Shown piece by piece: positions 74-36,705 of a stretch of 43,438 nucleotides of DNA. Each line of letters starts with the position of its first letter. Positions within the stretch are counted from its first letter, which is position 1. The stretch is from Patescibacteria group bacterium (GTDB lineage Bacteria; Patescibacteriota; Patescibacteriia; 2-12-FULL-57-11). Position numbers and translations under genes: made by a program. Below the pieces are notes generated by a model. The model was not told where the DNA came from. It ran no database searches and saw nothing but the letters and a program-made list of their open reading frames with translations. The DNA lies in the NCBI GenBank assembly GCA_004297205.1, contig SCUL01000002.1, forward strand, positions 143,156 to 186,593, read 5' to 3'.

Positions 74-2620
<2,547 letters not shown>

Positions 2621-4326: not shown

Positions 4327-4338
4327 AAACGTTGATCA

Positions 4339-4439
4339 TTACTGTCATCCTGAGCGGAGCGAAGGATCCTACCTGTTCTTGTCTGAGCTCCGACAAGAGC
4401 TGGCAGGATTCTTCGGTTGCCACCTCAGAATGACAGTAA
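4339..4439. repeat. REP doublet / MITE-like empty element
   Basis: ttactgtcatcctgagcggagcgaaggatcct ... aggattcttcggttgccacctcagaatgacagtaa in inverted orientation, enclosing the hairpin tcttgtc-N8-gacaaga. Confidence 0.85.
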
Positions 4440-4443
4440 CTAA

Positions 4444-6471
4444 TCATAATTTCTTCTTGTTCTTGTCCGGCACGGTCAGCTTCTTGCGCAGCGCCTTCAC
4501 TTCGTCGCGCAACACCGCGGCCAATTCGAACTGTAGCTCCTTGGCCGCCTCGCGCATCTGTTTTTCCTTTTCCTTGATGAGCTCCTCCGGTGACTTGGAC
4601 GAGGCCTGCGCTTCGAGCGCCAACGCCTTGGCGGCCAGGTCTTCTTCCTTCTTGCGGACAAAACCTTCCGTGATGTCCTTGATGCGCTTTTTGACGGTGT
4701 GCGGCGTGATGCCGTGTTCCTCGTTGTAGGCCGTCTGCAAAGCGCGGCGGCGGGTGATTTCATCGAGCGCGCGGCGCATCGAGCCGGTCACTTCGTCCGC
4801 ATACATCAGCACCACCCCGCTGACGTTGCGGGCGGCGCGTCCCGCGGTTTGCATGAGCGACGTTTCCGAACGCAGGAAGCCTTCCTTGTCGGCGTCGAGG
4901 ATGGCGACGAGCGTCACTTCCGGCAGGTCGAGCCCTTCGCGCAGCAGGTTCACGCCCACCAGCACGTCGAAGGTCCCCTTCCGGAAGTCGGTCAGAAGCG
5001 CAATGCGCTGCAAGGTGTCGACGTCACTGTGCAAGTACTTGGCTTTGACTTTCTCGCGTTCCGTGAGGTATTCGGTCAGGTCCTCCGCCATCTTCTTGGT
5101 CAGCGTCGTCACCATGACGCGCTCCTGTTTGTCGACGCGGGTGCGGATCTCGCCAATCAGGTCTTCGACCTGGCTCTTGGTCTTTCCCTTCACGCCCGTC
5201 ACCGGACGCACGTCGACCGCCGGATCGATCAAACCGGTCGGACGGATGATCTGCTCCACGATCTGCTCCGAGACTTTGCGTTCGTAGACGCCCGGCGTGG
5301 CCGACATGAAAATCACCTGTCCGACGCGCTGTTCGAATTCATCCGCCTTGAGCGGCCGGTTGTCGGCGGCCAGCGGCAGGCGGAAGCCGTACTCGATCAG
5401 GGTGCGCTTGCGGCTGGCATCGCCCTCGTACATGCCGCCGATCTGGGAGACCGTGACGTGCGATTCGTCGATGACCGTCAGGAAATCTTTCGGGAAGTAG
5501 GACAAGAGCGTGTCCGGCGGCTGGCCCGGCGCGCGTCCGTCAAAGGCGCGGCTGTAATTTTCGATGCCGTGGCAGAAACCGATGTTCTCGATCATCTCCA
5601 AATCGAACTTGGTGCGGCGTTCCAGCCGCTCGGCCTCGAGCAGTTTGCCTTCCTTCTCGAATTTCTTGAGCTGGCTGTCCAACTCGGTGCGGATCTCCTT
5701 GATGGCACGCTGCCGCTCCGGGCCGGTCGTCATGTAGTGCTTGGCCGGGAAGATCCAGACGTCCTCGATGCTGTCCTTGGTCTTGCGCGTCACCGGATCG
5801 ATCATCAAAATCTCCGTGACCTGGCCGGAGCGCGACATGATGCGGTAGACGATCTCTTCATTGGCGGGCATGACGTCGATCGTCTCCCCGACCGCGCGGA
5901 AGCTGCCGCGGACGAGGTCGGCCGTGGTGCGCGTGAATTGCATCTCGATCAGCCGGCGCAGCACGTCGCTGCGTCCGGCCTTGCCGCCGCGCACGATGTG
6001 CAGCGTGCTCCCCTCATAGTTCTGCGGACTGCCGAGACCGTAAATGCAGGAGACCGAGGCCACGATGATGACGTCGCGGCGCGTGAGAATCGCCTGCGTC
6101 GCGGCATGGCGCAGCCGGTCGATCTCTTCGTTGATCATGGCTTCCTTCTCGATGTAGGTGTCGGTGCGCGGCAAATACGCTTCCGGCTGGTAGTAGTCGT
6201 AGTACGACACGAAGTATTCCACGGCGTTCTTGGGGAAGAACTCGCGGAACTCGTTGCAGAGTTGCGCGGCCAGCGTTTTGTTGTGGGCGATCACCAAGGT
6301 CGGCCGCTTTACCTGGGCGATGACGTTGGCCATGGTGAAGGTTTTGCCGGAGCCGGTGACGCCCAAAAGCGTCTGGTAGCGGTGGCCCTTTTGGATGCTC
6401 TCAACCAACCCGGCAATGGCTTTGGGCTGGTCTCCTGCGGGTTTGTACTCGGTGGAAATCTTGAAATCCAT
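4444..6471 (-). CDS. uvrB: Excinuclease ABC subunit B
   Basis: [17 protein letters not shown], beta-hairpin [38 protein letters not shown]-terminal UVR coiled coil; start taken at MDFKIS. Confidence 0.97.
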
Positions 6472-6543
6472 ACCAAAAATCAGCCCGCGCGGGCGTCCTC
6501 CCTGGCCCACTGGGGATTTCTCCTACCCTAGCACAGCCCCTGA

Positions 6544-7084: not shown

Positions 7085-7126
7085 ATAAAAAAGAGACCGC
7101 CTCTGTCCCGAGGGACGTCAGCGGTC
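7085..7126 (-). terminator. Intrinsic terminator
   Basis: Stem gaccgc/gcggtc with inner gtccc/gggac, then tctctttttta on the minus strand. Confidence 0.65.
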
Positions 7127-8488
7127 GAACTTCACCTCCCGCACGGGAAGCGGCTCGTCACCGGTACCGCGCTCGTGGGCGCGCACGAAGGTCTCGTGCT
7201 CGCCGAGAGCGATGCCGTGCTCCGCAGCGAGAGCAACCGCCCTTAGAGACGGATGATAGCTCTTTGGCAGCTGACGGACGAACCAGGTCACGCCGTGCCG
7301 CCGCACCGTGCGGAGCGGCTGCTCGATCGAACCAGCGTCGCTCGGAGGACGCTGGATCCGAGGCATCACGGTCGCCGCCAGACGCGCCGTGATTGCTTCG
7401 GGGATGCCCCCGCCGGCGGCCAGCTCCCGCTCAAGAGCGTCTACGGGCGGCAGAGCATCCGCAACGGACACCGGCACCACCAGGTCGTGCACGCGGGTGA
7501 GCAACAGCAGTCGCCAAAGAGGGTAGGCCTTATGGAGACCGTTCGCCTCACAGACCTCGCGGACTCCCACCTGGGAGAACCCCATGGAGAGATGGCCATC
7601 GAGACCCAGGTTCCACAGCGACCATGTCACGACGTCCTCTCCCCACGACCATACACGATCCGCGCAAACAGGCTGGCCGTGAAGCTCGAGCGAGTTCGCC
7701 GCGCGCGGCCGTGCATTTCGAGCCCGACGCATGTCGCAGGAGAAGATGAGACAGCAGGTTCGCTCGCCGAAGCGATCGTTCACCCACTCGTTCCCTCCGT
7801 CGTCCTGTTCCGCGAATGCGATGACGTCGTTGGGGGGCACGAGAAGGTCAGAGTGAGAGTAGCACGCCTTCACGCCGGTGCGGCGCTCCAGACGAATCTT
7901 CTCCCACATGGCGTCCCCCCACTGGTTCAGCTCGTCCATGTCCAGACGTTCGGCACGCGCCTCGACGACCTGTGCGAGCCTGATGGTCTCGAGCAGCCGA
8001 GACGGGATGCGGATCACCCCGTCAAGGAACCTCATGTCGACGCCGTCCAAACCTGCATTGAAGTGCGCGCCCAGCCCGGCATCTGTGGTGAGCATCACCT
8101 CACGGATGTTGAGATCCGGACCCGCAGGCAGACCAAGATCTCCGAACTGTCCGCGGAGAAAGCCCTCCAGCGCATCTGCGCGGAAGCGCATCATCGCGCG
8201 CGTCTCGACCTGCTCCATCAGGCGATCGACGTGATGATACTCCGGCTTGTACGGCGCCTGGAGATCAGCGAAGTCTCCGAACTTGCGCTGAACCCCCAAG
8301 TAGAGCTTCCACATCAGCGCAGCGGTCGCACGGGGTTCAGAGCGGACCACGAGCGGAAGAAGCGCGTTCGTGAGCTGGCGCTCGGCCACACTATCGTACT
8401 TTCCCTTGACCGAACGGTGGATCCTGGTGACCAGCGTGCTCGGCAAGGACATGATGAACTTGCTCGCCACGAGTCTTCGCATGGACAT
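7118..8488 (-). CDS. Hypothetical protein (456 aa), no family recognised with confidence
   Basis: Long ORF with GGAGGT 5 nt before ATG, own promoter and terminator; C-terminal motif HGVTWFVRQLP...ETFVRAHERG. Confidence 0.85.
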   Translation of the reverse strand: MSMRRLVASKFIMSLPSTLVTRIHRSVKGKYDSVAERQLTNALLPLVVRSEPRATAALMWKLYLGVQRKFGDFADLQAPYKPEYHHVDRLMEQVETRAMMRFRADALEGFLRGQFGDLGLPAGPDLNIREVMLTTDAGLGAHFNAGLDGVDMRFLDGVIRIPSRLLETIRLAQVVEARAERLDMDELNQWGDAMWEKIRLERRTGVKACYSHSDLLVPPNDVIAFAEQDDGGNEWVNDRFGERTCCLIFSCDMRRARNARPRAANSLELHGQPVCADRVWSWGEDVVTWSLWNLGLDGHLSMGFSQVGVREVCEANGLHKAYPLWRLLLLTRVHDLVVPVSVADALPPVDALERELAAGGGIPEAITARLAATVMPRIQRPPSDAGSIEQPLRTVRRHGVTWFVRQLPKSYHPSLRAVALAAEHGIALGEHETFVRAHERGTGDEPLPVREVKFDR

Positions 8489-8521
8489 TTTCCACCTCCA
8501 ATTTGTGGGTCCACGCGCGTA

Positions 8522-8594: not shown

Positions 8595-8642
8595 ACGCCC
8601 TCGTTCATTAACAACCGAGCGGAAGAAAGGATCGGAATCTCG

Positions 8643-11600
8643 ATGAACCAGGTCAAGGGAAAGCGACACATGCTGGCGCTCATCGCCGGCAGCCGTCTCT
8701 CCCCCGAGGAAAAGCGTTCGTTCATCAACGAGCTGCTCGTCTCGGGCGAGGTCACGGAACACGATGTCGCGGAGATCATGGCCGGCGACATCGAGAAGAA
8801 CCTGGACAGCTACGCCGAGGTGATCCGCAGCGACGAGGTCCTGCGGTTCCTGTGGGAACGGTTCCGCGACCGCCCCGCATACCTCGCCCGTGCGCTCGTC
8901 CAGGCGCGTCCGGAGATCTTCTACTGCTACGGCTTCGCCTTCCGCCTGTCGCTCAAGCTGCGGGCGGATCTCGGCATCGTTTGGGTGCCGCCGCGGCACC
9001 CGGGCGCAGGCGGGGGTGGAAGCGCACCCGATGCGCCCCTCGCCGGCCTGCCGCAGGCCGTGGAGCAAAATATCTTCGGTCTCGAAGTGGAGTGCCGCTT
9101 CCGCGAACACCTTTACTTCTTCAACCGGAGCTTCGACGAAGGGCTCTCGCTCCTCGACGAGGAAATCTCCCGCGCGCAGACCGGCCACGAGCGGCGCGTC
9201 CTGCGTGCCGCGCGGAAGCTGGCGGCGGATCTGATCAAGATGCCGCTGCCGGGGGTACGGACCGAGTTCAACGGTTCGCCGTTCCCCGGGCTCCACGTGC
9301 GCTGGTGGCTCGACGCCGCCCGCACGCGGCCGCGGCTGCTCAACATGGGCGACACCGGAAGCTACAAGACGTCCTTCGCGGCCATCGCGATGCGCGTCTT
9401 CGGCTGCAAGCGGACGCTCGTGCTGTGCGCCCCCCACGCGCGCGAGAACTGGCAGCGCGAGCTGCTGGGGTACTTCACGGCCGAGGACGAGCCGTCGGTG
9501 CGCGTCGTCGAGAACCGCAAGGATCTCGACCTCGACACCGGCGAAGAGTTCACGATCGTCGGCTACTCCGCGCTGGTCCACGAGGAGACCGTCACCTCGC
9601 TCTGTGCGGGCGGCTACGACGGACTCATCCAGGACGAGTGCCAGTACGGGAAGAGCATCGGCACCGGAGCGGCCAAGAGGGCCCTGGCGACGCTGCGGCT
9701 CACCCGGGAGCTGCCGCTGAAGCGCTTCACCGCGCTCTCGGCGACGCCCTGGGAAAACCGCCCGGAGGAGATCGCCGCGCTGGCCGTGGCGCTCCGTCCG
9801 GAGCTGTTCTCGACGCCGGAGAGCTTCCTGGCCAGCGGCGCGGCAAAGAACCCGCGTTTGCTGCGCGAGCTCTTCAGCGAGCAGATCCTGGAGATCGAGC
9901 TGCGCGAGGTCACCGACCTCCCGCCGATCACTCCAAGGCCCTGGGAAGACCTGTTCGGCGCCGTGCCGGTGCAGCCCTTCCCGCGCCACCGGGCCATCTA
10001 CGCCCGCGTCCATGACGACGAGAGCGAAAAGCTGCGTCCCGCCGAGAAGGCGCTGCGCCTTCTCCTGGCAGCGACGCATCCGCCGCTCCTCGCCGGACGG
10101 GTCACCTGGCCCACCCACGCGATGGAGCCGCTCAAGGACTGGCGGGTGTCCACCAAGCTGGACTGGCTGAAGCGCTTCATCACGGAGCGCATCGCCACCC
10201 AGAAGATCGTCATCGGCTCGGGGCTGTATGCCGAAGGCATCACCCGCATGAGCAGCGAGGACGATGAGACGCCGTGGGTCGCGCAGCAGCTCAGGACCTG
10301 GTTCGGCAAGGACCAGGTGCTGGTGCTCGACGGGACGGTCGGTCTGCACGGTAGTGCCGGCGAGGCGAGCCCCCGCGAGTTACTGATCCGGCGCTGGCGG
10401 ACGGATCCGGACGCCCGGATCCTCCTCGTCTCTATGCAGGCCTGTCCGGACTCGGTGAACCTCACCGTCGGGCGCCTGCCCGGCGTGGAGCGGCTCGCCA
10501 TCACCGCGCTGTCCTTCGGATGGAAGCCGTGGAAACAGTTCCTCGGCCGCTTCTGGAGGCAGGGGCAGGGCGTTCCGGTCGAGTACCGCGTGCCGGTGCT
10601 GGTCGGAACGATCGACGACGATCTGCTGCGGCTGAACCGCGCGAAGTGGCATGCCCAGCAGCTCTTCCGAGCGCTGGTGCCGGTCACGGACCGCGAGCTC
10701 GCCTACCTGCGGATCGACGCCGGCGACGCCATGCGGGAACTCCTGCGTGACGCCTTCGAGCACGTCAACATGATCGCCGCGATGCTCCGCGGTCGGGGCG
10801 AGGACGGATGCGACCGGGTCTACGGCGGTGCCTACGGCGCCACCTCGAGAGCCGAAGCGTTCGCCCGTCACTTCGTGGAGATCGAGGACTTCGCGACGTC
10901 CGGCCACGTCGCGCGGTTCCAGAAGACCGTGATTGACCGCATGACTGCAGTCGGCATGGTCGATCCGGACCGGATCCTCGACGGCGGCTGCGGTCCGCTG
11001 ACGCTCGAGCGCCGGCTGAACGCGCCGGTGCACGGGATCGACATGAACCCCCACATGATCGAACTCGGGAAGGCCTTGTCCCCGCATCAGGGGAAGAACG
11101 CCTCCGTCGGACGGCTCTCCGCGATGCCTAAGATGTGGAAGCATGCCTTCCACCTCGTGTGCGCGTCGCTCGTCCTCGACTTCTCCAGCATCGACGCTGG
11201 CGGGGCGGACGGTCCGGAGCGGCTGCGGATCCTGCGCGAACTCGTCCGCGTCGCCCATCCTCACGGGATGATCTGGCTGACCTGGAACGAGAGCACGCAC
11301 ACCGACCAGACGCTCGCCGCCTGGAGCGACGCGATTGCCCGCACGGGTATGTCGCTCGTCCCCGGGCTGTGCGGACTGGTGCGCGCCACCGACCATCGCG
11401 AACAGCCGTTCGCCTTCTGGTCGCTGGCGTTCTCACCGAACGGCCTCGAGCCGCGTTTCCCGCGCGTGGACGATTTCCGGTTCGCCTTCGAACTGGAGCG
11501 CGTCCGCAGGAAGCGCGGCGGAAACGGAAACGGAGGGACGCCGCCCAAGAAGCGGCGAATCCAGCACGAGCGCTTCGAGGTCCTCACCGCCGACGGCGCG

Positions 11601-11774
11601 GTGACGGATGCCGAAGCCTCGCGGCAGTCCATCCTGCGGGAGGTCAGCAGGTGGGCGGCGCAGGGCGTGCGCGACCGCCGTCTCGGCCGGGACGCCTCGA
11701 TACTCCTCGAGGAACTCGGCAGCGACTGGCGCGTCTTGCGCCGGCTCCACGAGCTTGGCATCATCCAGGTCTGA
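8643..11774 (+). CDS. SNF2-family SF2 ATPase/helicase fused to a C-terminal class I SAM-dependent methyltransferase
   Basis: Motif I GDTGSYKT, Ia LVLCAPHARENW, II DECQ, III SATPWEN, IV KLDWL...KIVIGS, VLDGT, V LVSMQACPDSVNL, VI WKP..QFLGRFWRQGQ...GTIDD; MTase ILDGGCG, GIDMN, FHLVCASLVLDF, LRELVRVAHPHG. Confidence 0.85.
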   Translation: MNQVKGKRHMLALIAGSRLSPEEKRSFINELLVSGEVTEHDVAEIMAGDIEKNLDSYAEVIRSDEVLRFLWERFRDRPAYLARALVQARPEIFYCYGFAFRLSLKLRADLGIVWVPPRHPGAGGGGSAPDAPLAGLPQAVEQNIFGLEVECRFREHLYFFNRSFDEGLSLLDEEISRAQTGHERRVLRAARKLAADLIKMPLPGVRTEFNGSPFPGLHVRWWLDAARTRPRLLNMGDTGSYKTSFAAIAMRVFGCKRTLVLCAPHARENWQRELLGYFTAEDEPSVRVVENRKDLDLDTGEEFTIVGYSALVHEETVTSLCAGGYDGLIQDECQYGKSIGTGAAKRALATLRLTRELPLKRFTALSATPWENRPEEIAALAVALRPELFSTPESFLASGAAKNPRLLRELFSEQILEIELREVTDLPPITPRPWEDLFGAVPVQPFPRHRAIYARVHDDESEKLRPAEKALRLLLAATHPPLLAGRVTWPTHAMEPLKDWRVSTKLDWLKRFITERIATQKIVIGSGLYAEGITRMSSEDDETPWVAQQLRTWFGKDQVLVLDGTVGLHGSAGEASPRELLIRRWRTDPDARILLVSMQACPDSVNLTVGRLPGVERLAITALSFGWKPWKQFLGRFWRQGQGVPVEYRVPVLVGTIDDDLLRLNRAKWHAQQLFRALVPVTDRELAYLRIDAGDAMRELLRDAFEHVNMIAAMLRGRGEDGCDRVYGGAYGATSRAEAFARHFVEIEDFATSGHVARFQKTVIDRMTAVGMVDPDRILDGGCGPLTLERRLNAPVHGIDMNPHMIELGKALSPHQGKNASVGRLSAMPKMWKHAFHLVCASLVLDFSSIDAGGADGPERLRILRELVRVAHPHGMIWLTWNESTHTDQTLAAWSDAIARTGMSLVPGLCGLVRATDHREQPFAFWSLAFSPNGLEPRFPRVDDFRFAFELERVRRKRGGNGNGGTPPKKRRIQHERFEVLTADGAVTDAEASRQSILREVSRWAAQGVRDRRLGRDASILLEELGSDWRVLRRLHELGIIQV

Positions 11775-11783
11775 ACGGCCTGG

Positions 11784-11810
11784 GACGGACTTCGGTCCGT
11801 CTCTTTTTTT
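11784..11810 (+). terminator. Intrinsic terminator with C(UUCG)G tetraloop
   Basis: gacggac-ttcg-gtccgtc followed by tcttttttt. Confidence 0.85.
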
Positions 11811-11814
11811 ATCA

Positions 11815-11843
11815 TTGACAGTTCGCTTCAAGTCCGGTAATGA
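11815..11843 (+). promoter_or_regulatory. Candidate promoter TTGACA-N17-TAATGA
   Basis: Perfect -35 directly after the terminator; GGAGGT SD at 11860-11865. Confidence 0.5.
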
Positions 11844-11869
11844 CGATTCGTCACAAAACGGAGGTGCAG

Positions 11870-12463
11870 GTGACGCTACTGGATATGAATCACAAGGAGC
11901 TGGCCCGCCAGCTCATGGGCGCACAGCTGATCGTCGGCGGCGTGGCCGCGACGATTCTGGAGGCGCAGGGGTACTCCCGCAAGGAGAACAGCGATCCGCT
12001 CTACCGGCCGCTGCTTGCGCTCCCCCCGGGCAGCGTCTACTGCCCGCGGCGTCGGAACGCGATCCTGACCCTGATCGCCTGCCGCGACGGCGGCGAACCG
12101 GGCGGCTGCATCCTGCTCCGGACGATCGAGGTGGATGGCGCGGTCGTGCAGGGGCCGGGCCGGGTCTCCGAGGCGCTCGGGATCACGACGCACGCCCAAC
12201 AGGGCACGCTCGTCCCGCACGGGGACGACGTCATCGAGCTGCAGCTCGGCGCAGGTACGAAGGCGCCGTCGGTGCCCATGCCGCCCCCGGGCGGCCGCGG
12301 CATCGGCGACGAGACGGTCAAGCGGCTGATGCCGCTGATCGTCAAGGCGTACATGAAGAGCGGCAAAGGCGTCTCGTTCCAGGCCTATCTGAACAAGACC
12401 CTCGCGGAGTGCCCAACGGAGCGCGATCTCCGCAGGCGCCTGCGCGAACAGACGCAGGGCTGA
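11870..12463 (+). CDS. Divergent 3-methyladenine DNA glycosylase (AAG/MPG family) homologue, probably catalytically altered, with C-terminal helical extension
   Basis: ELARQLMGAQL, ILEAQGY (cf. IVETEAY), PPGSVY, CILLRTIE, GPGRVSEALGIT; GTG start 4 nt after GGAGGT. Confidence 0.75.
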   Translation: MTLLDMNHKELARQLMGAQLIVGGVAATILEAQGYSRKENSDPLYRPLLALPPGSVYCPRRRNAILTLIACRDGGEPGGCILLRTIEVDGAVVQGPGRVSEALGITTHAQQGTLVPHGDDVIELQLGAGTKAPSVPMPPPGGRGIGDETVKRLMPLIVKAYMKSGKGVSFQAYLNKTLAECPTERDLRRRLREQTQG

Positions 12464-12495
12464 ACGCAGTCGGTCACGACTCGCGTTCTTTTTTT
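12462..12495 (+). terminator. Intrinsic terminator
   Basis: gaacgc-agtcg-gtca-cgact-c-gcgttc followed by a T7 tract. Confidence 0.7.
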
Positions 12496-13840
12496 AAATC
12501 TCGTACGTCTCCCCCGGCGCGGCGGGAGTGACCGGAAGCATCAGGTCCTGGGCCACGCGCTGGGAGAAGCTGTCGGCCACGGGACGGTCGGCGTGGGAGA
12601 CGTAGACGTGCTTGGGCATGCCGCCGCGCAACCATTCCAAAAGCTTGTCCTGGTCGGCGTGGGCGCTGTAGGCGCCGATGGCCACGACGCGGCAGCGGAC
12701 GCGGATCTTGTCGCCGTGGATGCGCACCACGCTCTCGCCGTCGTAGATGCGGCGCCCGAGCGTCCCCGCGGCCTGGTAGCCGATGACCAGCACCGACGAG
12801 TTCTTGTCCGGCAGGACGCGCTTCAAGTGGTGCAGGATGCGGCCGCCGTTCATCATGCCGCTGCCGGCGATGATGATCTTGGGTTGCGGCGCGTCATTGA
12901 CGCGCTTGGACTCCTCGCGGCTCGGCGTCATGGTCAGCCCCGGAAACTTGAAGAAGTCGTCGCCGCAATCCACGATGCAGGCCGCCTTGCGGTTGAAATA
13001 GGTCTCGTTGCGGCGGAAGACTTCCGTGGCTTTGATGGCCAGCGGCGAATCCAGAAAAACCGGAATCCGCGGGATGTGGTTGTGCTCGACCAGATGGTTC
13101 AGCTCGTAGAGCAGCTCCTGGGTGCGTTCGAGCGCAAAGGCCGGGATGAGCACCGTCCCGCCCAGCTTCACGGTTTCCAAAATGACGCGCTGCAGTTTCT
13201 CCGAGCGCTCGCGCGGATCTTCGTGCTTGCGGCCGCCGTAGGTCGCCTCGATGACCACCGCATCGGCCGCGGGCAGCCGCTCCGTGGGCCGCATGATCGG
13301 CACGTTGCGGTTGCCGAGGTCGCCGGAAAAGACGACCGACTTCCCGTCGGCCCAGATTTCGACGAAACTCGAGCCGAGAATATGTCCGGCGTCATGGAAC
13401 ACCGCGGTCACGCCCGGCGCGACTTTGGTTTCCTGGCCGTAGGGCACGGTGCGCACCAGGCGCTTGGCTTCCTGCATGGCGGCGCCGTCGTAGAGCGGCT
13501 CCCACTCTTTTTCCCGCTCCCAGTCTTCCTGCATGACGTGGAGCGTGTCTTCCCAGAGCAGCTCCATGAGTTGCGCCGTGGGCGGCGTGGCGTAGACCGG
13601 CGCGGTGCTGCCGAGGTGCGCCAGCACCGGAATGCGCCCCGTGTGGTCGGTGTGGGCGTGCGTCACGATCACGGCATCAAGACCGCGCACGTCGTACGGG
13701 AAGGCTTCGCGGTTGCGCTCGTTGGCGGTGCGCATCCCCTGGAACAGGCCGCAGTCAACCAGGACGCGCGCCTTGGCCGTCTCGATCAGCATCTGGGAGC
13801 CGGTGACCTCGCCGGCCGCGCCGAAGAACGTCAGTTTCAC
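12494..13840 (-). CDS. MBL-fold beta-CASP ribonuclease family protein
   Basis: KLTFFGAAGEVTGS, LVDCGLFQG, HAHTDH, AGHILGS, FSGDLG, SAHAD; GTG start overlaps the upstream TGA (GTGA). Confidence 0.92.
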   Translation of the reverse strand: MKLTFFGAAGEVTGSQMLIETAKARVLVDCGLFQGMRTANERNREAFPYDVRGLDAVIVTHAHTDHTGRIPVLAHLGSTAPVYATPPTAQLMELLWEDTLHVMQEDWEREKEWEPLYDGAAMQEAKRLVRTVPYGQETKVAPGVTAVFHDAGHILGSSFVEIWADGKSVVFSGDLGNRNVPIMRPTERLPAADAVVIEATYGGRKHEDPRERSEKLQRVILETVKLGGTVLIPAFALERTQELLYELNHLVEHNHIPRIPVFLDSPLAIKATEVFRRNETYFNRKAACIVDCGDDFFKFPGLTMTPSREESKRVNDAPQPKIIIAGSGMMNGGRILHHLKRVLPDKNSSVLVIGYQAAGTLGRRIYDGESVVRIHGDKIRVRCRVVAIGAYSAHADQDKLLEWLRGGMPKHVYVSHADRPVADSFSQRVAQDLMLPVTPAAPGETYEI

Positions 13841-14070
13841 ACCGCGCCCTTCTCGGCGCCGCGCTTGTAGTCGGCGTAACGGCTGCGCAGGTCGTCGCGC
13901 AGCTGGGAGATGTTGTCGTCGTCCTCCACTTCGGCCCAATCCACCTTCTCGTTCAGGACCACCTCGACCATGTCATCCCATTGTTCCTGCGAGGTGACGC
14001 CTTCGGCTTCGGCCCGCTCGCGGACCGCGCCGTACAACTCTTCGGGGCTGTATTCGAGATTCTCGACCAT
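13837..14070 (-). CDS. Small acidic hypothetical protein (77 aa)
   Basis: MVENLEYSPEELYGAVRERAEAEG...; translationally coupled to the beta-CASP gene. Confidence 0.7.
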   Translation of the reverse strand: MVENLEYSPEELYGAVRERAEAEGVTSQEQWDDMVEVVLNEKVDWAEVEDDDNISQLRDDLRSRYADYKRGAEKGAV

Positions 14071-15128: not shown

Positions 15129-15854
15129 ATGCGTCTTGCCATTGCCTTGACCACCACGCTGGTCGTCCTGTTTTCGATTGCAGGTGCCGGCATTGTCGGT
15201 GCGCGGCCGCTCTACGCGCCCGCCGCCATCATCACCGCCTTCACCGCGCCCGCTCCGGCCGCGGATGGTTTGCGCGTGGCGGCCGACGTTCCGGTCGTCC
15301 AGGCCGCGACGGCCTCGGTGGACCTGCCGATCGACGGATACGCCGTGCGTCGGACGCTCAAGACGTTCGGCACCTACGTGGACGACGACCGCTTTGTGGG
15401 CTACCACGCCGGCGAAGACGTGGAGTTCGTTTTGGAGAAGGCCGACGTGCCGGTGCACGCCATCGCCGACGGCACGGTGTTGTTCGTCGGCTGGGCTACG
15501 GGCTACGGCGGCCTGATCGTCGTGGCGCATGACGTGGACGGCGAGGACATTTCCGCCATCTACGGGCACGTCAACCTCGGCTCCTCGACGCTCACGGCCG
15601 GAGACCGCGTCGCACGCGGGCAGCTCCTGGCCAACCTGGGCCGGGGATTCAGCAAAGAAACCGACGGCCGCCGCAAGCATCTCCACTTCGGCCTCTATCC
15701 CGGACACGAGCTGCGCACGGCCGGCTATCTCAACGACTCCAAGGAGCTTTCGGACTGGATCGATCCGGCCGCGTTTTTCACGCGCCACGGCATCGCGGTG
15801 CCGGAGCTCGATCTCCCGGCAGTGGTCACGCAGTCCGAACAACCGACGCGTTGA
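15129..15854 (+). CDS. Secreted M23-family metallopeptidase
   Basis: Signal-like N-terminus; HAGED (HxxxD), VHAIADGTV, GYGG, YGH, HLHFG (HxH). Confidence 0.9.
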   Translation: MRLAIALTTTLVVLFSIAGAGIVGARPLYAPAAIITAFTAPAPAADGLRVAADVPVVQAATASVDLPIDGYAVRRTLKTFGTYVDDDRFVGYHAGEDVEFVLEKADVPVHAIADGTVLFVGWATGYGGLIVVAHDVDGEDISAIYGHVNLGSSTLTAGDRVARGQLLANLGRGFSKETDGRRKHLHFGLYPGHELRTAGYLNDSKELSDWIDPAAFFTRHGIAVPELDLPAVVTQSEQPTR

Positions 15855-16800
15855 TCCCCCACTTCGGCGGGAAGAAGAAGTGGATGGGTTCCGGCGCCGC
15901 AACAAAGCGGGCCTTTATTTTTTTGCGGGCGCTGGCCAGTTCCGGCACGGCCACGCGGCAATACTTATCCGTCTCGCAGAACAGGCCTTGCGCGTCGATG
16001 GCCTGGATCGGTCGTCCCCACAAGCCGTGAAACCCCAACCCGAGCCGTTCAAATTCCTGCTGTTGCCGTTCGACCATCCAAAGAATCGCCTCAGCCGGTG
16101 AATGGTCGCCGAGCGAGGTGAAAACTTTTTTCAGGCCGCGCAGCGCACCTGGGCCCGGCTTTGTAAAATCGTTTTCCGAAAAGTTGATGAGGTCCGAATA
16201 ATTCAGGTCGATGGCGATTTGATAGGCCATGAAGTCGCCGATCAGCGGGAAGCTGCGCAGCAGATGGAAGACGGCCGCGAGCGATGGCACCGCCAGCAGC
16301 CGCGCGCCTAAGTTCTGTTTGAGGAACATGTCTTGAAACAGGGCGACGTGGTTGCGGTGCTTCTCATCGAACCCGTAGGCCTTGTTGGCGCACAGGATGA
16401 AGGCGCCGGTGTAGAGGCCGCCGTTCTCACGCTTGGCCGCATCCAGCGCCTTCTCAAACGAGCCGTCGCGCAGGTCGCCGAGCGTCGGCGTGCGGCCGAG
16501 CGTTTTACGTACGCTGTTCCAGGTGTCGATGTCGCTGAAGGTGCGGAAGGCTGTGATCTGAAACAGCCGATCCTCCGGCGTACACGGCTCACCGTGATAG
16601 GCGACCTCGCGGATCAGATATTGCGAAACACGGTCAGCGGCGCGGAATACGTTGCAAAACTTGTAGGTCTGCAAAATCGGATCGTCGGTCCACGGTCCCG
16701 GCTCCCCTGCCACGCGCCGCTCAAAGATGCGCTGCCGCTCGGCAGCGAAGCGCCAGTAGATGTCGAAGACGTTTGGCCGAGGAACTGGCGGAGCCTTCAC
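15826..16800 (-). CDS. aGPT-Pplase1 / 5-hmdU DNA kinase helical domain family protein (putative amino acid:DNA transferase)
   Basis: YWRFAAERQRIFERR..G...PWTDDPIL..YKFCNVFRAADRVSQYLI, YTGAFIL, IGDFMAYQIAIDLNYS, PGPGALRG, AQGLFCETDKYCRV. Confidence 0.8.
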   Translation of the reverse strand: MKAPPVPRPNVFDIYWRFAAERQRIFERRVAGEPGPWTDDPILQTYKFCNVFRAADRVSQYLIREVAYHGEPCTPEDRLFQITAFRTFSDIDTWNSVRKTLGRTPTLGDLRDGSFEKALDAAKRENGGLYTGAFILCANKAYGFDEKHRNHVALFQDMFLKQNLGARLLAVPSLAAVFHLLRSFPLIGDFMAYQIAIDLNYSDLINFSENDFTKPGPGALRGLKKVFTSLGDHSPAEAILWMVERQQQEFERLGLGFHGLWGRPIQAIDAQGLFCETDKYCRVAVPELASARKKIKARFVAAPEPIHFFFPPKWGINASVVRTA

Positions 16801-17378
16801 AGCGTCTTAATGAGTCGCTCCAACGTTCTCAGGTACTCCCGCCGATGAATCTTATGTTCGGCACCCCGACTAACACGCAACGAACTTCTTGGGATACGAG
16901 CGCGTGCATCCTTCGCCCGAACCGCAACCGAAAAGTGCTCCTTGCTCCCGTACACCACATACGTTTTGACGCGAATCCTCGGCGCCATTGCGGCAAACGA
17001 GTAGTCGCTGTCCTTGAAGTGCTTTCGCCACCAACGGATCCACGACGGTTTTAGATTCTTCATGTCCTCCTCGAAGTACGGTGACAGCGAACAGAGGATC
17101 AGCGCCTTCGGCTTGATCTTTGTGGCGCTCAGGAAGGCGATGGTCGCGCCATACGAAAAGCCGAGCACGTACGTCTCCTGCCGTTTTCGTCCGTCATGGT
17201 GCTTCAGGAACTGCCGCACGAAGTCGGTGAACGTCCGGGGCGTCTTCCGGTGCCAGTCGATCAGGACATATCGCGGCGTGATCCCCTGCCGCTCGAAGAA
17301 TCCGCCGATGGCTTTATACCCGCGCTGCCGCAGCGGTGAATGGCCAAAGCCGGGAATGATGTAGGCGATCCTTTCCAT
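16797..17378 (-). CDS. Alpha/beta hydrolase
   Basis: IIPGFG oxyanion region, GFSYG nucleophile elbow, C-terminal GAEH; stop overlaps the next start (GTGA). Confidence 0.8.
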   Translation of the reverse strand: MERIAYIIPGFGHSPLRQRGYKAIGGFFERQGITPRYVLIDWHRKTPRTFTDFVRQFLKHHDGRKRQETYVLGFSYGATIAFLSATKIKPKALILCSLSPYFEEDMKNLKPSWIRWWRKHFKDSDYSFAAMAPRIRVKTYVVYGSKEHFSVAVRAKDARARIPRSSLRVSRGAEHKIHRREYLRTLERLIKTL

Positions 17379-17384
17379 GATCAG

Positions 17385-17421
17385 ATGGTAGCACATCAAA
17401 AGCGCCCGGCGATGCCGGGCG
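17385..17421 (-). promoter_or_regulatory. Terminator hairpin plus extended -10 promoter (near-leaderless start)
   Basis: cgcccggc-gat-gccgggcg followed by ctttt on the minus strand; then TG-C-TACCAT 6 nt before ATG 17378. Confidence 0.5.
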
Positions 17422-17434
17422 GACAGTCACTGAC

Positions 17435-18157
17435 TCAATAGATTCGTTTCCAACGCCTGAAACTTTTAATATCTGCAGTGCTCAAATCGAACCATTCGCC
17501 ATTCATGCGTTTTCCATCAAACCTTCTATGCCAGTATGCCTCAACCCCACTAGGGTCGTCGGTATTAATCGAGTGAATCAAATCGAGACGCTCGGGCAAT
17601 TGAATTCGAATTTCATTTCCGCGGCGTACTGTATCGAATGTCTTACCAATCTTGTAGTACCTGCCCGATTTGAACAAATACACGCTCCCTAGCCTCTCAT
17701 TCAGGTTGCCTTCCGTGGTATCGGCCCGCTTGTCATGTTTTTCAAGAATAGACTGACAAAGACCGATGATATCTTCGTTGCCACCTTCAGTTTTACAAAA
17801 TTTAACTACCCTCCTAACAAGCTCTTCTTTCGATCCAAAACGCATAAAGACTTTCGAACTTGGAAAACCTTCGTCGGTATTTTCTGCCACGCGAAACTCT
17901 TTGAATGTCGGAAACTTCCCCAACTTGGAGGTGAGCTCAATTGCTTTCTTAATCAAGAATTCGTCTGAGTAAGCGGTCTGAAGCCGGTTCGGTGTAAAAC
18001 CTGCCTCCGTTTGCGCCTGGCTAAAGCGGGCCCAATACTTCCCCCATTCATGAGGCTTGATTCCGGTTTCCTTTTCAAATCTGTTCATCCCCAAAGGATT
18101 ACCACCGTTCTGGGTGGCCGTGCGTTTGATTTCCTCCAATATTTCTTGTTTGTTCAT
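17435..18157 (-). CDS. MUG113/T5orf172-type GIY-YIG nuclease with N-terminal helical repeats
   Basis: GSVYLFKSGRYYKIGKT...EAYWHRRFDGKRMNGEWFDL; visibly AT-richer than flanks; start taken at MNKQEIL. Confidence 0.85.
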   Translation of the reverse strand: MNKQEILEEIKRTATQNGGNPLGMNRFEKETGIKPHEWGKYWARFSQAQTEAGFTPNRLQTAYSDEFLIKKAIELTSKLGKFPTFKEFRVAENTDEGFPSSKVFMRFGSKEELVRRVVKFCKTEGGNEDIIGLCQSILEKHDKRADTTEGNLNERLGSVYLFKSGRYYKIGKTFDTVRRGNEIRIQLPERLDLIHSINTDDPSGVEAYWHRRFDGKRMNGEWFDLSTADIKSFRRWKRIY

Positions 18158-18242
18158 ATAAACACGTAACGGCCGGGTCCCTGATCCGCAACTCAAACGA
18201 AGTACCTCTATCACGACTTACCGAGCCAATCCTAACACAAAC

Positions 18243-18271
18243 AAAAAGCCCCCGACAAAAGTCGGTGGCTT
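18243..18271 (-). terminator. Terminator downstream of tRNA-Gln
   Basis: aaagccaccgac-tttt-gtcgggggcttttt on the minus strand, abutting the CCA end. Confidence 0.7.
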
Positions 18272-18345
18272 TGGCTGGGAGACTAGGATTCGAACCTAGA
18301 TAAACAGGGCCAGAACCTGTTGTCCTACCATTAGACGATCTCCCA
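18272..18345 (-). tRNA. tRNA-Gln (anticodon CTG)
   Basis: tgggagatcgtctaatggtaggacaacaggttctggccctgtttatctaggttcgaatcctagtctcccagcca: acceptor tgggaga/tctccca, anticodon arm acagg-ttCTGgc-cctgt, TTCGAAT T-loop, encoded CCA. Confidence 0.97.
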
Positions 18346-18688: not shown

Positions 18689-18717
18689 AGGATAGCAAAG
18701 CCTGGCGAGGGAATCAA
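18689..18717 (-). promoter_or_regulatory. Promoter TTGATT-N17-(TG)cTATCCT upstream of the tRNA fragment
   Basis: Exact 17-nt spacing with extended -10, about 10 nt before the duplicated tRNA 5' end. Confidence 0.6.
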
Positions 18718-20333
18718 GAGACGACCCGCCCCCCGAAGGCATCGAGCACGTTCTTGATGACCGGATCCTCCATGGAGACGGAGACAACCTCGCTGGCCGG
18801 GTTCTGCAATCCTTCCACGACCAGGCCCTCGATGCAGACCTTGCAGCCGAAGATTTTCTCGCAGGCGTCCTCCACGGTGCGGCGGTTCTTGTGGTCATTC
18901 AGCCGGTCGCGGTGGAAGGCGAAGGGTACGCCGATGATCAGCTTCTCCGCCTCGATGGCTTCCGGCTTGCTGCCGTTCAGCACATAGGAAAGCGAGTGGC
19001 TGACTTCTCCAGCAGCGACGATCAACTGTTGCCACTTCTCGCGGAAGGCCTCGAGCGGGAGCGTGATGGCGGACGGGGACGACACCCCCTCTCCCGCCTG
19101 CGGCGGGACGAGTGGCTCGCCCTTCGCAAGGGGGAGAATGTTCTCGGGCGCGCCGAAGCTAGCCTCCGCGGGTGCTTTTTTTACGGGTGGCGGTGCAACC
19201 GGTTTCGGCGCAACCGGCGCCGGCATCGACACGGTCGGTGCAGCGGCAGGTGGCGGCGCCAGCAGCGTGGCCACGACGATTTCAAGCGGCAGCGGCGAAC
19301 CGTCGCCGCGCTTCACGCGCTCCTGCGCGGTCATGATCGTTTCAATGGCGGCGAGCAAACGCGGCGTGCCCCAGCCGGCAAGCGGACCGGAGACGAGCGC
19401 CGCGCCGGGTTCGTCGAGCTCGCTGAGGCCGGACGTCTCCCCCATCGCCGCGAGCAGACCGAGACGCAACAGCCGCTGCGTGTCTTCCAGGAAGCGCGCG
19501 AAGTCCACGCCGTCGGCAACGAGTTTGTCGATCAGCTGCAACGCATCGCCGCCCCGGCCGCGGTGGATGACGTCCAAAAACTGCCGCGCCAAGTCGAGAT
19601 CGGAATGCGGCAGCACCAGCGCGGCTTCGTCGCGCGTGACGCGCTTTTCCCCGAGCGCCAGGATCTGGCCGAGCATCGACTCGGCATCGCGCAAGGAACC
19701 GCCGGCAGCCCGGGCAATGTCCTTGAGCACCTCGGTGTCCACGTCGACTTCTTCTTTGGAGGCGAGCGTCGCCAGGCGCTTCACCAAATCGGGTACGCCG
19801 ATCTTCCGGAAGTCGAAACGCTGGCAGCGGGAGAGGATGGTGGCCGGGACTTTATGCGTCTCCGTGGTCGCCAGGATGAAAATGGCGTGGGCCGGCGGCT
19901 CCTCCAGCGTCTTCAAGAGCGCATTGAAGGCCGCCGTCGAAAGCATGTGGACTTCGTCGATGATGAACACCTTGTACTTCAGCCGGGCCGGGGTGAAGCG
20001 CACGCTCTCGATGATGTTCTCGCGCACCGCATCCACGCCGGTGTGGGAGGCGGCGTCGATCTCCAGGATGTCCACGGCCTTGTTGTCCTGGATCGACAAG
20101 CAGGCCTCGCAGGCCAGGCAGGGTTCGTTCCCTTTGCGGTCCGTGCAGTTGATGACCTTGGCGAAGATGCGGGCCGTGGTGGTCTTGCCGATCCCGCGGG
20201 GGCCGGCAAACAGGTAGGCATGGGCGATCTTGCCCGCGCCGATTTCGTTCTGGAGGGTGACGCGGACGTGGACCTGGTCCGTGAGGTCCCCGAAGGTCTG
20301 CGGCCGGTATTTGCGGTACAGCGCCAAGCCCAT
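18714..20333 (-). CDS. dnaX: DNA polymerase III subunit gamma/tau
   Basis: ALYRKYRPQTF, GPRGIGKTT, Zn motif C...PCLACEAC, EIDAAS, IIDEVHML, AFNALLKTLEEPP, SRC motif, GGSLRDA. Confidence 0.97.
   Translation of the reverse strand: MGLALYRKYRPQTFGDLTDQVHVRVTLQNEIGAGKIAHAYLFAGPRGIGKTTTARIFAKVINCTDRKGNEPCLACEACLSIQDNKAVDILEIDAASHTGVDAVRENIIESVRFTPARLKYKVFIIDEVHMLSTAAFNALLKTLEEPPAHAIFILATTETHKVPATILSRCQRFDFRKIGVPDLVKRLATLASKEEVDVDTEVLKDIARAAGGSLRDAESMLGQILALGEKRVTRDEAALVLPHSDLDLARQFLDVIHRGRGGDALQLIDKLVADGVDFARFLEDTQRLLRLGLLAAMGETSGLSELDEPGAALVSGPLAGWGTPRLLAAIETIMTAQERVKRGDGSPLPLEIVVATLLAPPPAAAPTVSMPAPVAPKPVAPPPVKKAPAEASFGAPENILPLAKGEPLVPPQAGEGVSSPSAITLPLEAFREKWQQLIVAAGEVSHSLSYVLNGSKPEAIEAEKLIIGVPFAFHRDRLNDHKNRRTVEDACEKIFGCKVCIEGLVVEGLQNPASEVVSVSMEDPVIKNVLDAFGGRVVS
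19084..19136. repeat. Nested palindromic repeat inserted in frame in the dnaX linker
   Basis: ctcgcccttcgcaagggggag hairpin plus tcccgcctgcggcggga hairpin; encodes LPLAKGEPLVPPQAGEGV. Confidence 0.65.
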
Positions 20334-33430: not shown

Positions 33431-33432
33431 GA

Positions 33433-33942: not shown

Positions 33943-33955
33943 AAGATGGCTAACT

Positions 33956-34783: not shown

Positions 34784-34791
34784 GTTGGAGA

Positions 34792-36705
<1,914 letters not shown>

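What the first reader, a model, noticed from the sequence alone, without database searches (positions are those of the whole stretch)
11870..12463. AAG/MPG homologue with a natural E125Q-equivalent substitution and Arg in place of the intercalating Tyr
Seen: ILEAQGY aligns to human AAG IVETEAY, placing Gln (CAG, 11966-11968) at catalytic Glu125. YCPRRRN aligns to YVYIIYG, so Tyr159 becomes Pro and wedge Tyr162 becomes Arg; Arg182 (LLRT) and GPG are kept. A roughly 50-aa helical tail is added. Established: E125Q is the classic inactivating AAG mutation that preserves lesion binding. Inference: a pseudo-enzyme repurposed as a DNA-binding reader, lesion shield or partner of the adjacent helicase-MTase. 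The alignment was made by eye.
Basis: partly seen in the sequence, partly recalled or inferred. Interest (0 to 1): 0.72.

Follow-up and report, generated by a model that had tools for sequence, protein, structure and literature searches.

The report
AAG-like protein paired with Snf2-methyltransferase
This gene encodes a shortened relative of the DNA-repair enzyme AAG in which the catalytic residue is not conserved, and it sits beside a DNA-motor/methyltransferase gene in many candidate-phyla bacteria, so it is more likely a DNA- or base-binding partner of that motor than a classic repair glycosylase.

Summary
ORF 11870..12463 (+) is a true, distant AAG/MPG homologue (profile-profile probability 99.4%; AlphaFold model best matches human AAG). 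Tool alignments reproduce the by-eye mapping: Gln (CAG 11966-11968) = Glu125, Pro = Tyr159, Arg = Tyr162, and Arg182 and GPG are kept. His136 and Asn169 are also lost, and the C-terminal third of AAG is replaced by a disordered linker plus a three-helix tail.

"Natural E125Q" is the wrong frame. The two nearest orthologues (71-73% identical) have Glu. Across 73 family representatives the site reads E27/Q20/K7/R7/D6, which is average variability, and no column is 90% or more acidic. The gene is under purifying selection (dN/dS about 0.2).

The family occurs mainly in MAGs named as candidate-phyla-radiation (CPR) bacteria. In 9 of 10 distinct loci it lies beside or within 2 kb of a 1,040-aa Snf2 translocase fused to a class I methyltransferase. 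A conserved unknown protein usually accompanies them, as does a small protein carrying the same C-terminal tail.

Best reading (about 0.45): a glycosylase-derived, probably non-catalytic DNA/base-binding subunit of this uncharacterised module. A Glu-independent glycosylase is not excluded. I rate it a new variant of a known kind, of moderate-to-high interest.

The parts
11870..12463 (+). AAG-like gene (A). Likely start is GTG 11870 (197 aa); the longest ORF starts at ATG 11840 (207 aa, the numbering used here).
   Evidence: ORF list and sequence. GGAGG at 11860-11864. Orthologue N-termini align to residue 11. GC3 0.89. dN/dS 0.20 against L001.
11870..12247 (+). AAG/MPG-like core domain (residues about 11-136), corresponding to human AAG residues about 86-240. 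It lacks the last third of the AAG fold.
   Evidence: hhalign 99.4%. AF2 pLDDT 80-91 in this stretch. Foldseek top hits are human AAG 3qi5/3uby/1f6o/7xfh.
11966..11968 (+). CAG = Gln43, aligned to catalytic Glu125 of human AAG.
   Evidence: The family column reads E27 Q20 K7 R7 D6 S2. Orthologues P0002 and P0003 have Glu.
12044..12055 (+). Pro69-Arg70-Arg71-Arg72. P69 = Tyr159 and R72 = intercalating Tyr162.
   Evidence: Conservation: P69 56/74, R70 40 (plus K 10), R71 18, R72 46/74.
12119..12121 (+). Arg94 = Arg182 of AAG (retained).
   Evidence: R 50 plus K 8 of 75.
12248..12298 (+). Pro/Gly-rich disordered linker (residues about 137-153).
   Evidence: pLDDT <50 for residues 138-153. Length and sequence vary in the family alignment.
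12299..12460 (+). C-terminal three-helix tail (GIGxxT..RLMPxI..Y..F..(F/Y)LN..L..C.TE..LRR.L). The same module also ends separate small proteins (T) in related loci.
   Evidence: Helices 157-174, 180-190 and 194-205, pLDDT about 80-88. The tail HMM hits T proteins in L003, L007, L008, L009, L010 and L011 at E 1e-14 to 1e-18.
8643..11774 (+). Snf2-type translocase fused to a class I SAM methyltransferase (S, 1043 aa). It is the conserved upstream neighbour.
   Evidence: Pfam SNF2-rel_dom and Methyltransf_11/31. PDB profile hit to 1z63, E 4e-13. AF2 plus Foldseek match ISWI/CHD4/CSB/RapA motors. Invariant K242 (Walker A), D331-E332, and D780/G784 (SAM motif I). Synteny.
7118..8488 (-). Unknown protein X (456 aa), transcribed divergently from S. 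Its C-terminal motif is shared with the 513-577-aa proteins upstream of S in L007, L008 and L009; the 566- and 660-aa proteins at that position in L010 and L011 align there only weakly.
   Evidence: tblastn and alignment. No Pfam, NCBIfam, PDB or PADLOC match.
11782..11810 (+). GC-rich hairpin plus T7 run directly after the S stop codon (terminator-like). TTGACA at 11815-11820 follows it.
   Evidence: Equivalent hairpins sit in the S-A gap of all 8 loci examined.
12468..12490 (+). Terminator-like hairpin and T-run after the A stop codon, between the convergent A and beta-CASP genes.

Best explanation
The gene encodes a member of a previously undescribed family found mainly in MAGs named as CPR bacteria (Patescibacteria). 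The family descends from AAG/MPG DNA glycosylases.

It keeps the N-terminal two-thirds of the AAG fold, namely the beta-hairpin that enters the DNA minor groove, Tyr127, Tyr157, Arg182 and the GPG helix cap. It has lost the constraint on the catalytic Glu and has lost His136, Tyr159 and Asn169 of the base pocket. It has also lost the C-terminal third of the domain.

I propose that it no longer cuts the glycosidic bond by the AAG mechanism. Instead it would act as a DNA-binding, probably nucleotide-flipping, recognition subunit, with Arg72 as the plug and a remodelled, still conserved pocket (Y/F45, N50, Y55, Y/F67, P69, L78, C90). It would work with the neighbouring Snf2 translocase-methyltransferase.

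Its C-terminal three-helix tail is shared with a second small protein of the same gene cluster. I propose the tail is the docking module that attaches either protein to the same hub (S and/or X).

Shown here: homology, fold, site mapping, site variability, purifying selection, gene linkage and tail sharing. Inferred: DNA or base binding, lack of glycosylase activity, and docking through the tail.
For: - Homology and fold: hhalign 99.4%, E 1.7e-21. AF2 core pLDDT about 88, and the Foldseek top five hits are all human AAG.
- Loss of catalytic constraint: the site aligned to Glu125 reads E27/Q20/K7/R7/D6/S2 of 73, entropy rank 63 of 123 core positions. No column is 90% or more acidic; the best are D83 at 81% and E49 at 64%.
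- The flanking A42, G44 and Y/F45 are well conserved, so this column is reliably aligned.
- H136 becomes G/P, Y159 becomes P, N169 becomes L, and the AAG C-terminal strands are absent.
- The gene is not decaying: dN/dS is 0.20 (core 0.15) against a 72%-identical orthologue, and GC3 is 0.89.
- The strongest conservation falls on residues aligned to AAG pocket, wedge and DNA-contact positions.
- Linkage: S lies directly upstream on the same strand, with a 76-135 nt gap, in the window, L001, L002, L004/5, L007, L008, L009 and L011. It lies within 2 kb in L010. S identity across these loci falls as low as 32-45%.
- The tail module also ends small T proteins in six loci.
- S is a genuine Snf2 dsDNA-translocase fold with intact ATPase and SAM motifs.
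Against: - No biochemical data exist.
- 45% of members do have Glu or Asp at the Glu125 site, including the nearest orthologues. Some or all members may therefore be active.
- I could not inspect model coordinates, so another residue (for example D83, E49 or E97) could lie at the catalytic position.
- A hairpin plus T-run separates S from A in every locus. They are therefore probably not strictly co-transcribed, and adjacency alone does not prove physical interaction.
- The S methyltransferase is of the generic small-molecule/RNA type, with no DNA-MTase motifs recognised. The DNA-centred model therefore leaves its role unexplained.
- The tail's docking function is pure inference.
Confidence: 0.45

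Rival explanations
1. It is still a working DNA glycosylase: a minimised CPR version of MPG. Base excision would not depend on a carboxylate at position 43. This could apply to intrinsically labile cationic lesions such as 3mA or 7mG, or water could be activated by another residue.
For: The fold, Tyr127, Arg182 and GPG are retained. Purifying selection is strong. 33 of 73 members have E or D at the site. A sister subgroup with Arg at the wedge keeps Glu125 and Asn169, so Arg is compatible with an AAG-type site. uvrA and uvrB are nearby in the window, uvrB in L001 and uvrA in L009. From general knowledge, E. coli TAG and AlkD excise cationic purines without a canonical catalytic carboxylate.
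Against: Lys, Arg or Gln occupies the site in 34 of 73 members, and no alternative acidic column is invariant. Three of four base-pocket residues and the whole C-terminal third are gone. In human AAG, E125Q is used as the inactive, lesion-binding form for crystallography (1EWN; PMC4227769). From my own knowledge, the general base is also needed for 7mG excision by AAG.
Confidence: 0.22
2. It is an RNA- or tRNA-binding, or RNA-polymerase-associated, module. The AAG fold is shared with the C-terminal domain of formyltransferases. S would then act like RapA on transcription complexes, and its methyltransferase would modify RNA or protein.
For: Foldseek hits 6-10 are ArnA, whose formyltransferase C-terminal subdomain shares the AAG fold (E about 1e-2), and hits 21 and 39 are methionyl-tRNA formyltransferase (Fmt) itself at E 0.56-0.76. 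The S methyltransferase resembles generic class I small-molecule/RNA enzymes. RapA is among the structural matches of S.
Against: AAG hits are about 1000-fold better than ArnA/Fmt hits. Sequence-profile homology is specifically to MPG. The minor-groove hairpin and Arg182 are DNA-contact features. ISWI, CHD and CSB motors match S better than RapA does.
Confidence: 0.1
3. It is the sensor of a modification-dependent or modification-based defence system. In this reading the Snf2 ATPase, methyltransferase, unknown effector X and base reader would be analogous to DISARM/BREX, or to type IV restriction readers such as SRA/EVE domains.
For: Snf2 plus MTase combinations are typical of defence systems (general knowledge). 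X is unknown and could be an effector. A PHROG 'DNA helicase' family matches S at E 2e-22. A DndB-like gene is nearby in L011.
Against: None of the six genes tested gave a PADLOC hit. tblastn found no phage homologues. The module is single-copy, sits among housekeeping genes, and shows uniform length and 40-80% identity across MAGs named as Uhrbacteria, Sungbacteria, Parcubacteria and Saccharibacteria. That is a vertical, housekeeping-like pattern rather than a patchy island. No nuclease domain was recognised.
Confidence: 0.1
4. It is a decaying glycosylase gene in this genome only, that is, a recent inactivating E-to-Q mutation on the way to pseudogenisation.
For: The two closest orthologues have GAG/Glu where the window has CAG/Gln.
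Against: The frame is intact, GC3 is 0.89 and dN/dS is 0.20. Gln recurs in 20 of 73 family representatives, including distant ones. The Shine-Dalgarno sequence and terminator are intact.
Confidence: 0.03

Closest known systems
Human AAG/MPG and bacterial MPG (Pfam PF02245; PDB 1EWN, 1F4R, 3QI5)
   Same: Homologous fold over AAG residues about 86-240. The minor-groove beta-hairpin, Tyr127, Tyr157, Arg182, the GPG/GPS helix cap and the LGI helix are retained.
   Different: - Glu125 is not conserved (Gln here).
- His136 is replaced by Pro/Gly, Tyr159 by Pro, Tyr162 by Arg and Asn169 by Leu.
- The TPRN loop is deleted.
- The last third of the domain is missing.
- A linker and three-helix tail are added.
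- The Pfam score is below the gathering score.
Alkyltransferase-like proteins (ATL: Atl1, eATL/YbaZ, TTHA1564)
   Same: The resemblance is in mode of action only. ATLs are repair-enzyme homologues without the catalytic residue that still bind and flip the lesion and pass it to another repair machine (PMC10779285 abstract). From my own knowledge, ATLs use an Arg finger and couple to UvrA/NER. Here Arg occupies the plug position, and uvrA and/or uvrB lie nearby in three loci.
   Different: The fold is unrelated (AGT versus AAG). The partner here would be a Snf2 translocase-MTase, not UvrA. No lesion binding has been shown.
Formyltransferase C-terminal domain (Fmt, ArnA)
   Same: Same fold class, used as a non-catalytic nucleic-acid or substrate-binding module. 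These are secondary Foldseek hits.
   Different: Similarity is much weaker than to AAG, and sequence homology is specifically to MPG.
S. pombe Mag2 (glycosylase homologue without glycosylase activity; from my own knowledge)
   Same: A precedent for a DNA glycosylase paralogue that lost catalysis and binds DNA or abasic sites.
   Different: Mag2 belongs to the helix-hairpin-helix superfamily, not the AAG fold, and has no Snf2 partner.
Snf2 plus methyltransferase pairings (fungal DNMT5, DISARM DrmD/DrmMI, phage P1 DarB; from my own knowledge)
   Same: The partner protein S joins a Snf2 motor to a SAM methyltransferase in one polypeptide.
   Different: The S methyltransferase is a generic class I (Methyltransf_11/31) type without recognised DNA-MTase motifs. 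There is no PADLOC or phage match. None of those systems has an AAG-like subunit.

Membership tests
AAG/MPG DNA glycosylase (PF02245) | Pfam model match at or above the gathering score | tested here: not met
   25.1 bits against a cut-off of 27, E 1.2e-5. 26 of 48 family members match at E <= 0.01. NCBIfam equivalog scores are far below their cut-offs.
AAG/MPG DNA glycosylase (PF02245) | Homology by profile-profile comparison and shared fold | tested here: met
   hhalign 99.4%, E 1.7e-21. Foldseek top five hits are human AAG, probability 1.00, TM 0.42.
AAG/MPG DNA glycosylase (PF02245) | Catalytic general base Glu125 | tested here: not met
   Gln43 in the window. The family column reads E27 Q20 K7 R7 D6.
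AAG/MPG DNA glycosylase (PF02245) | Intercalating Tyr162 | tested here: not met
   Arg72 here; R in 46 of 74 members.
AAG/MPG DNA glycosylase (PF02245) | Base-binding pocket Tyr127 / His136 / Tyr159 / Asn169 | tested here: not met
   Only Tyr127 is kept (Y45). The others are P53, P69 and L78.
AAG/MPG DNA glycosylase (PF02245) | Arg182 and the GPG/GPS motif | tested here: met
   R94 and G105-P106-G107.
AAG/MPG DNA glycosylase (PF02245) | Complete domain including the C-terminal strands (human residues about 245-290) | tested here: not met
   The alignment ends at hAAG residue 240 (template position 158 of 216). It is followed by a disordered linker and helices. Pfam covers profile positions 5-140 of 181.
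AAG/MPG DNA glycosylase (PF02245) | N-glycosidic bond hydrolysis of alkylated or deaminated purines | not testable with these tools
   Needs enzyme assays.
Non-catalytic lesion sensor of the ATL type (functional class) | Repair-enzyme homologue lacking the catalytic residue but under purifying selection | tested here: met
Non-catalytic lesion sensor of the ATL type (functional class) | Binds or flips damaged bases and hands them to a partner machine | not testable with these tools
   Only gene linkage to S has been shown.
Known anti-phage defence systems (PADLOC-DB) | Match of any module protein to a defence model | tested here: not met
   No hits for A, S, X or the neighbours tested.

The most novel reading that the evidence does not exclude
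The X-T-S-A cluster is a CPR-wide DNA-transaction machine of a new kind, in which an ATP-driven Snf2 translocase carries a methyltransferase ('writer') and recruits an ex-glycosylase that flips out and reads a methylated or damaged purine without cutting it. That would be either a translocase-coupled, ATL-like lesion hand-off pathway or a writer-reader DNA-marking system.
Probability: 0.12. Interest if true: 0.85.

Novelty: new variant of a known kind. Interest (0 to 1): 0.58.

Why it matters
CPR bacteria have tiny genomes and poorly understood DNA maintenance. In this family the catalytic Glu of AAG is free to vary while the rest of the protein stays under selection. The gene is also tied to a highly conserved Snf2-methyltransferase across MAGs named as several CPR lineages. 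Together these point to an uncharacterised, probably ancestral, DNA-handling module.

If the protein binds lesions without excising them, it would be the AAG-fold counterpart of alkyltransferase-like proteins. It would also be a natural experiment on what the AAG scaffold does when stripped of chemistry.

For annotation, the result warns against labelling these genes '3-methyladenine DNA glycosylase', as one source already does for P0007.

Tried and rejected
- PDB sequence searches with the single protein and with the 7-sequence profile did not find AAG. The relationship appears only with Pfam, profile-profile or fold comparison.
A3 worked but found only 3 species genomes.
- tblastn of A and S against phages found nothing. 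PADLOC found nothing. PHROGs found nothing for A.
- X has no Pfam, NCBIfam or PDB match and only 2 database relatives, so I did not model it.
- The promoter scan found no consensus sigma-70 site in 8400-12700. The TTGACA at 11815 is only a direct reading of the sequence.
- Literature searches for AAG with CPR, for Pur_DNA_glyco, and for Snf2 + methyltransferase + Saccharibacteria found nothing describing this family.
- The antisense ORFs overlapping the gene (11876..12220 -, 12037..12366 -) were rejected as high-GC artefacts, because the + frame has GC3 0.89 and homologues.
- The beta-CASP nuclease downstream was considered as a partner. It is conserved only in the closest relative L001, so I left it out of the module.

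Full report

The window has an ORF at 11840..12463 (+), 207 aa. Orthologues begin at the residue matching GTG 11870. I use ATG numbering below; subtract 10 for GTG numbering.

Third-position GC is 0.89, like the other real genes of this 63% GC window. CAG at 11966-11968 is Gln43 in ILEAQGY, and YCPRRRN is at 12038-12058.

**2. Is it an AAG/MPG homologue?**

Yes, but a remote one.
- Pfam PF02245 matches residues 16-126 at 25.1 bits, E 1.2e-5, just under the gathering score of 27.
- phmmer and a 7-sequence profile against PDB sequences miss AAG entirely.
- I built a 76-sequence family alignment from an exhaustive search of 1.84 billion representatives (137 hits, 72 below 1e-10). With it, hhalign against human AAG plus eight canonical bacterial MPGs gives probability 99.4%, E 1.7e-21, over residues 9-129. 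My recalled human AAG sequence was verified as identical to PDB 1f4r over all 216 residues searched.
- An AlphaFold2 model (mean pLDDT 79, core blocks 80-91) finds human AAG as its top five PDB matches (E 2e-5 to 6e-4, TM 0.42). Hits 6-10 are ArnA, whose formyltransferase C-terminal subdomain shares the AAG fold; Fmt itself appears only at ranks 21 and 39 with E 0.56-0.76.

**3. Site mapping**

hhalign and an independent MAFFT alignment of 136 sequences that includes human AAG agree on the mapping in the table.

| Human AAG residue | Window residue (ATG numbering) | Status |
|---|---|---|
| E123 | E41 | kept |
| E125 | Q43 | changed |
| Y127 | Y45 | kept |
| D132 | N50 | changed |
| H136 | P53 | lost |
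| Y157 | Y67 | kept |
| Y159 | P69 | lost |
| Y162 | R72 | changed |
| N169 | L78 | lost |
| L180 | L92 | kept |
| R182 | R94 | kept |
| GPS | GPG 105-107 | kept |

Two further changes were not noted.
- The TPRN loop (AAG residues 140-146) is deleted.
- The alignment stops at AAG residue 240, so the last third of the AAG domain is absent.

That missing third is replaced by a disordered Pro/Gly-rich linker (138-153, pLDDT <50) and three helices at 157-174, 180-190 and 194-205.

**4. Is Gln special?**

No. The two closest orthologues (73% and 71% identity) have Glu, and more distant relatives have Lys, Asp or Gln.

Over 73 family representatives the column reads E27, Q20, K7, R7, D6, S2. Its entropy is 2.47 bits, rank 63 of 123 core positions. 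The flanking A42, G44 and Y/F45 are well conserved, so the column is well aligned.

No core column is 90% or more acidic. The best are D83 at 81% and E49 at 64%.

The most conserved positions are Y55, G122, C90, G105, P106, L78, N50, G88 and G64, followed by Y/F45, P69, D83 and R47. Several of these align to AAG pocket or DNA-contact positions. R70 and R72 are mostly Arg or Lys, while R71 is variable, so the conserved motif is PRxR rather than RRR.

A sister subgroup (for example P0092, P0107, P0110) has Arg at the wedge position yet keeps Glu125 and Asn169. Arg for Tyr162 is therefore not a mark of inactivity in itself. In the literature, Y162 acts as a plug that stabilises the flipped state 140-fold, and E125Q is the inactive form crystallised with ethenoA DNA (PMC4227769).

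**5. Is it decaying?**

No. Against the L001 orthologue, dN/dS is 0.20 (core 0.15, tail 0.27), with dS about 1 and therefore near saturation. The frame, Shine-Dalgarno sequence and terminator are intact.

**6. Context**

Directly upstream at 8643..11774 (+) is a 1043-aa protein, S, with two recognisable parts.
- Snf2 motor. The PDB profile hits Sulfolobus Snf2 1z63 at E 4e-13. An AF2 model (pLDDT 79.6) matches ISWI, CHD4, DDM1, CSB, Mot1 and RapA. Walker A K242 and D331-E332 are invariant.
- Class I SAM methyltransferase (Methyltransf_11/31). D780 and G784 are invariant. It resembles generic small-molecule/RNA-type enzymes, with no DNA-MTase motif recognised.

S has 42 close homologues, all 1030-1070 aa apart from two shorter or partial entries (763 and 876 aa). 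The few that carry an organism name are named Uhrbacteria, Sungbacteria or Parcubacteria.

The AAG-like gene, A, follows S on the same strand with a 76-135 nt gap in the window, L001, L002, L004/L005, L007 (record named Saccharibacteria), L008 (record named Parcubacteria), L009 and L011. It lies 2 kb away in L010. S identity across these loci goes down to 32-45%. Only the 2.7-kb contig L003 lacks S within its span.

Two further genes recur in these loci.
- X is a 450-660-aa protein upstream of S (divergent from S in the window, 7118..8488 -). Apart from the L010 and L011 copies, which align only weakly there, the X proteins share the C-terminal motif RRLPxGYxPS...ETFVRAHERG.
- T is a 106-129-aa protein whose C-terminal half is the same three-helix tail as in A. 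The tail HMM scores E 1e-14 to 1e-18 on T proteins. T is absent from the window and from L001.

None of A, S or X matches PADLOC models, and neither A nor S has a tblastn match in phage genomes. Flanking genes are housekeeping and differ between lineages.

A GC-rich hairpin, in most loci followed by a T-run, sits right after the S stop codon in all eight loci examined. A probably has its own promoter or is expressed by read-through.

**7. Mechanism**

The best-supported reading is that A is a glycosylase-derived recognition subunit. Its scaffold still looks built to engage duplex DNA through the hairpin (Arg plug) and a remodelled, conserved pocket. It lacks a conserved catalytic carboxylate and works with the Snf2-MTase module. 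The shared tail would be a docking element used by both A and T.

The steps shown are homology, fold, loss of constraint, selection, linkage and tail sharing. DNA or base binding, catalytic inertness and docking are inferred. I put this at about 0.45.

The main rival (about 0.22) is a streamlined but active glycosylase whose chemistry tolerates E, Q or K at this site. Lesser rivals are an RNA/RNAP-associated role (0.10), a defence sensor (0.10) and lineage-specific decay (0.03).

**8. Comparison with what is known**

By descent it belongs to the AAG/MPG superfamily. However, it fails most defining features of the enzyme family: gathering score, Glu125, Tyr162, three of four pocket residues, and a complete domain. 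I therefore do not file it as an MPG glycosylase.

In mode of action it most resembles alkyltransferase-like proteins, which are catalytically dead repair homologues that flip lesions and pass them on (PMC10779285). It also resembles Mag2 (my own knowledge). I found no paper describing this family or the S-A pairing.

**9. Verdict**

The interesting object is not a single E-to-Q change. It is a conserved AAG-derived family with an unconstrained catalytic site, a novel shared tail, and tight linkage to an uncharacterised Snf2-methyltransferase. Named records so far place it in CPR bacteria.

I rate it a new variant of a known kind, with interest about 0.58.

Noticed in passing
window 15826..18345: Low-GC patch (52-55% against 63-67% around it) next to tRNA-Gln(CTG) at 18272..18345 (-). 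It carries a 5-hmdU DNA kinase (PF18723, E 1.6e-100; 15826..16800 -), an alpha/beta hydrolase (16797..17399 -) and a T5orf172/MUG113 GIY-YIG-like plus HNH-repeat protein (17435..18214 -). The orthologous locus L001 has UDG and bestrophin genes there instead. It looks like an inserted island with a thymidine-hypermodification-type kinase.
   Followed up: partly
window 74..2620 (-), 4444..6510 (-), 18714..20333 (-): UvrA, UvrB and DnaX flank the module. UvrB is also upstream in L001 and UvrA in L009, but not in L007, L008, L010 or L011. Proximity to NER genes is therefore lineage-specific.
   Followed up: partly
window 7118..8488 (-); L001 2609..3928 and 4036..5388: Protein X has two tandem paralogues in L001 and only three database relatives in this lineage. 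Its C-terminal motif RRHxVxxHxRRLPxGYxPS..A..LA.E.GI.L...ETFVRAHERG is shared with the longer X proteins of L007, L008 and L009 (the L010 and L011 copies align there only weakly). It has no match in Pfam, NCBIfam, PDB or PADLOC.
   Followed up: partly
S-A intergenic gaps: window 11775..11869; L001 8663..8755; L007 5879..5970; L008 5889..5964; L009 9148..9243; L011 9187..9274; L002 2535..2669; L004 2977..3111: Every gap starts with a strong GC-rich hairpin, mostly followed by a T-run. A TTGACA-like hexamer follows in several loci. This suggests a conserved terminator or attenuator between S and A.
   Followed up: partly
L001/L006 (CAZYLV010000016.1): The closest relative's record is titled 'uncultured Gammaproteobacteria bacterium'. 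All other named relatives of S and A are Uhrbacteria, Sungbacteria, Parcubacteria or Saccharibacteria. The label is probably a mis-assignment. The window's own taxon was not determined directly.
   Followed up: no
proteins P0092, P0098, P0107, P0108, P0110, P0131, P0133 (not in the window): A separate AAG-like subgroup has Met at the Tyr159 position and Arg at Tyr162, but retains Glu125 and Asn169. Some members carry 100-160-aa N-terminal extensions. P0077 (2371 aa) also scored against the family profile, with no clear domain.
   Followed up: partly
window 21586..24132 (-): VirD4/TraG-like type IV secretion coupling protein (PF10412/PF02534), flanked by small unknown ORFs.
   Followed up: no
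window 33000..35000: A second low-GC patch (52-54%) with strongly negative GC skew. It was not examined.
   Followed up: no
window 12494..13939 (-): Beta-CASP metallo-beta-lactamase nuclease, convergent with A. Its NCBIfam hits to the Cas14 (type VII) and aCPSF1 models are far below their cut-offs. It is conserved only in L001.
   Followed up: partly
protein P0007 (JGI): One short-form family member is already annotated by its source as '3-methyladenine DNA glycosylase Mpg', although it has Gln at the Glu125 position. This is probably over-annotation.
   Followed up: no
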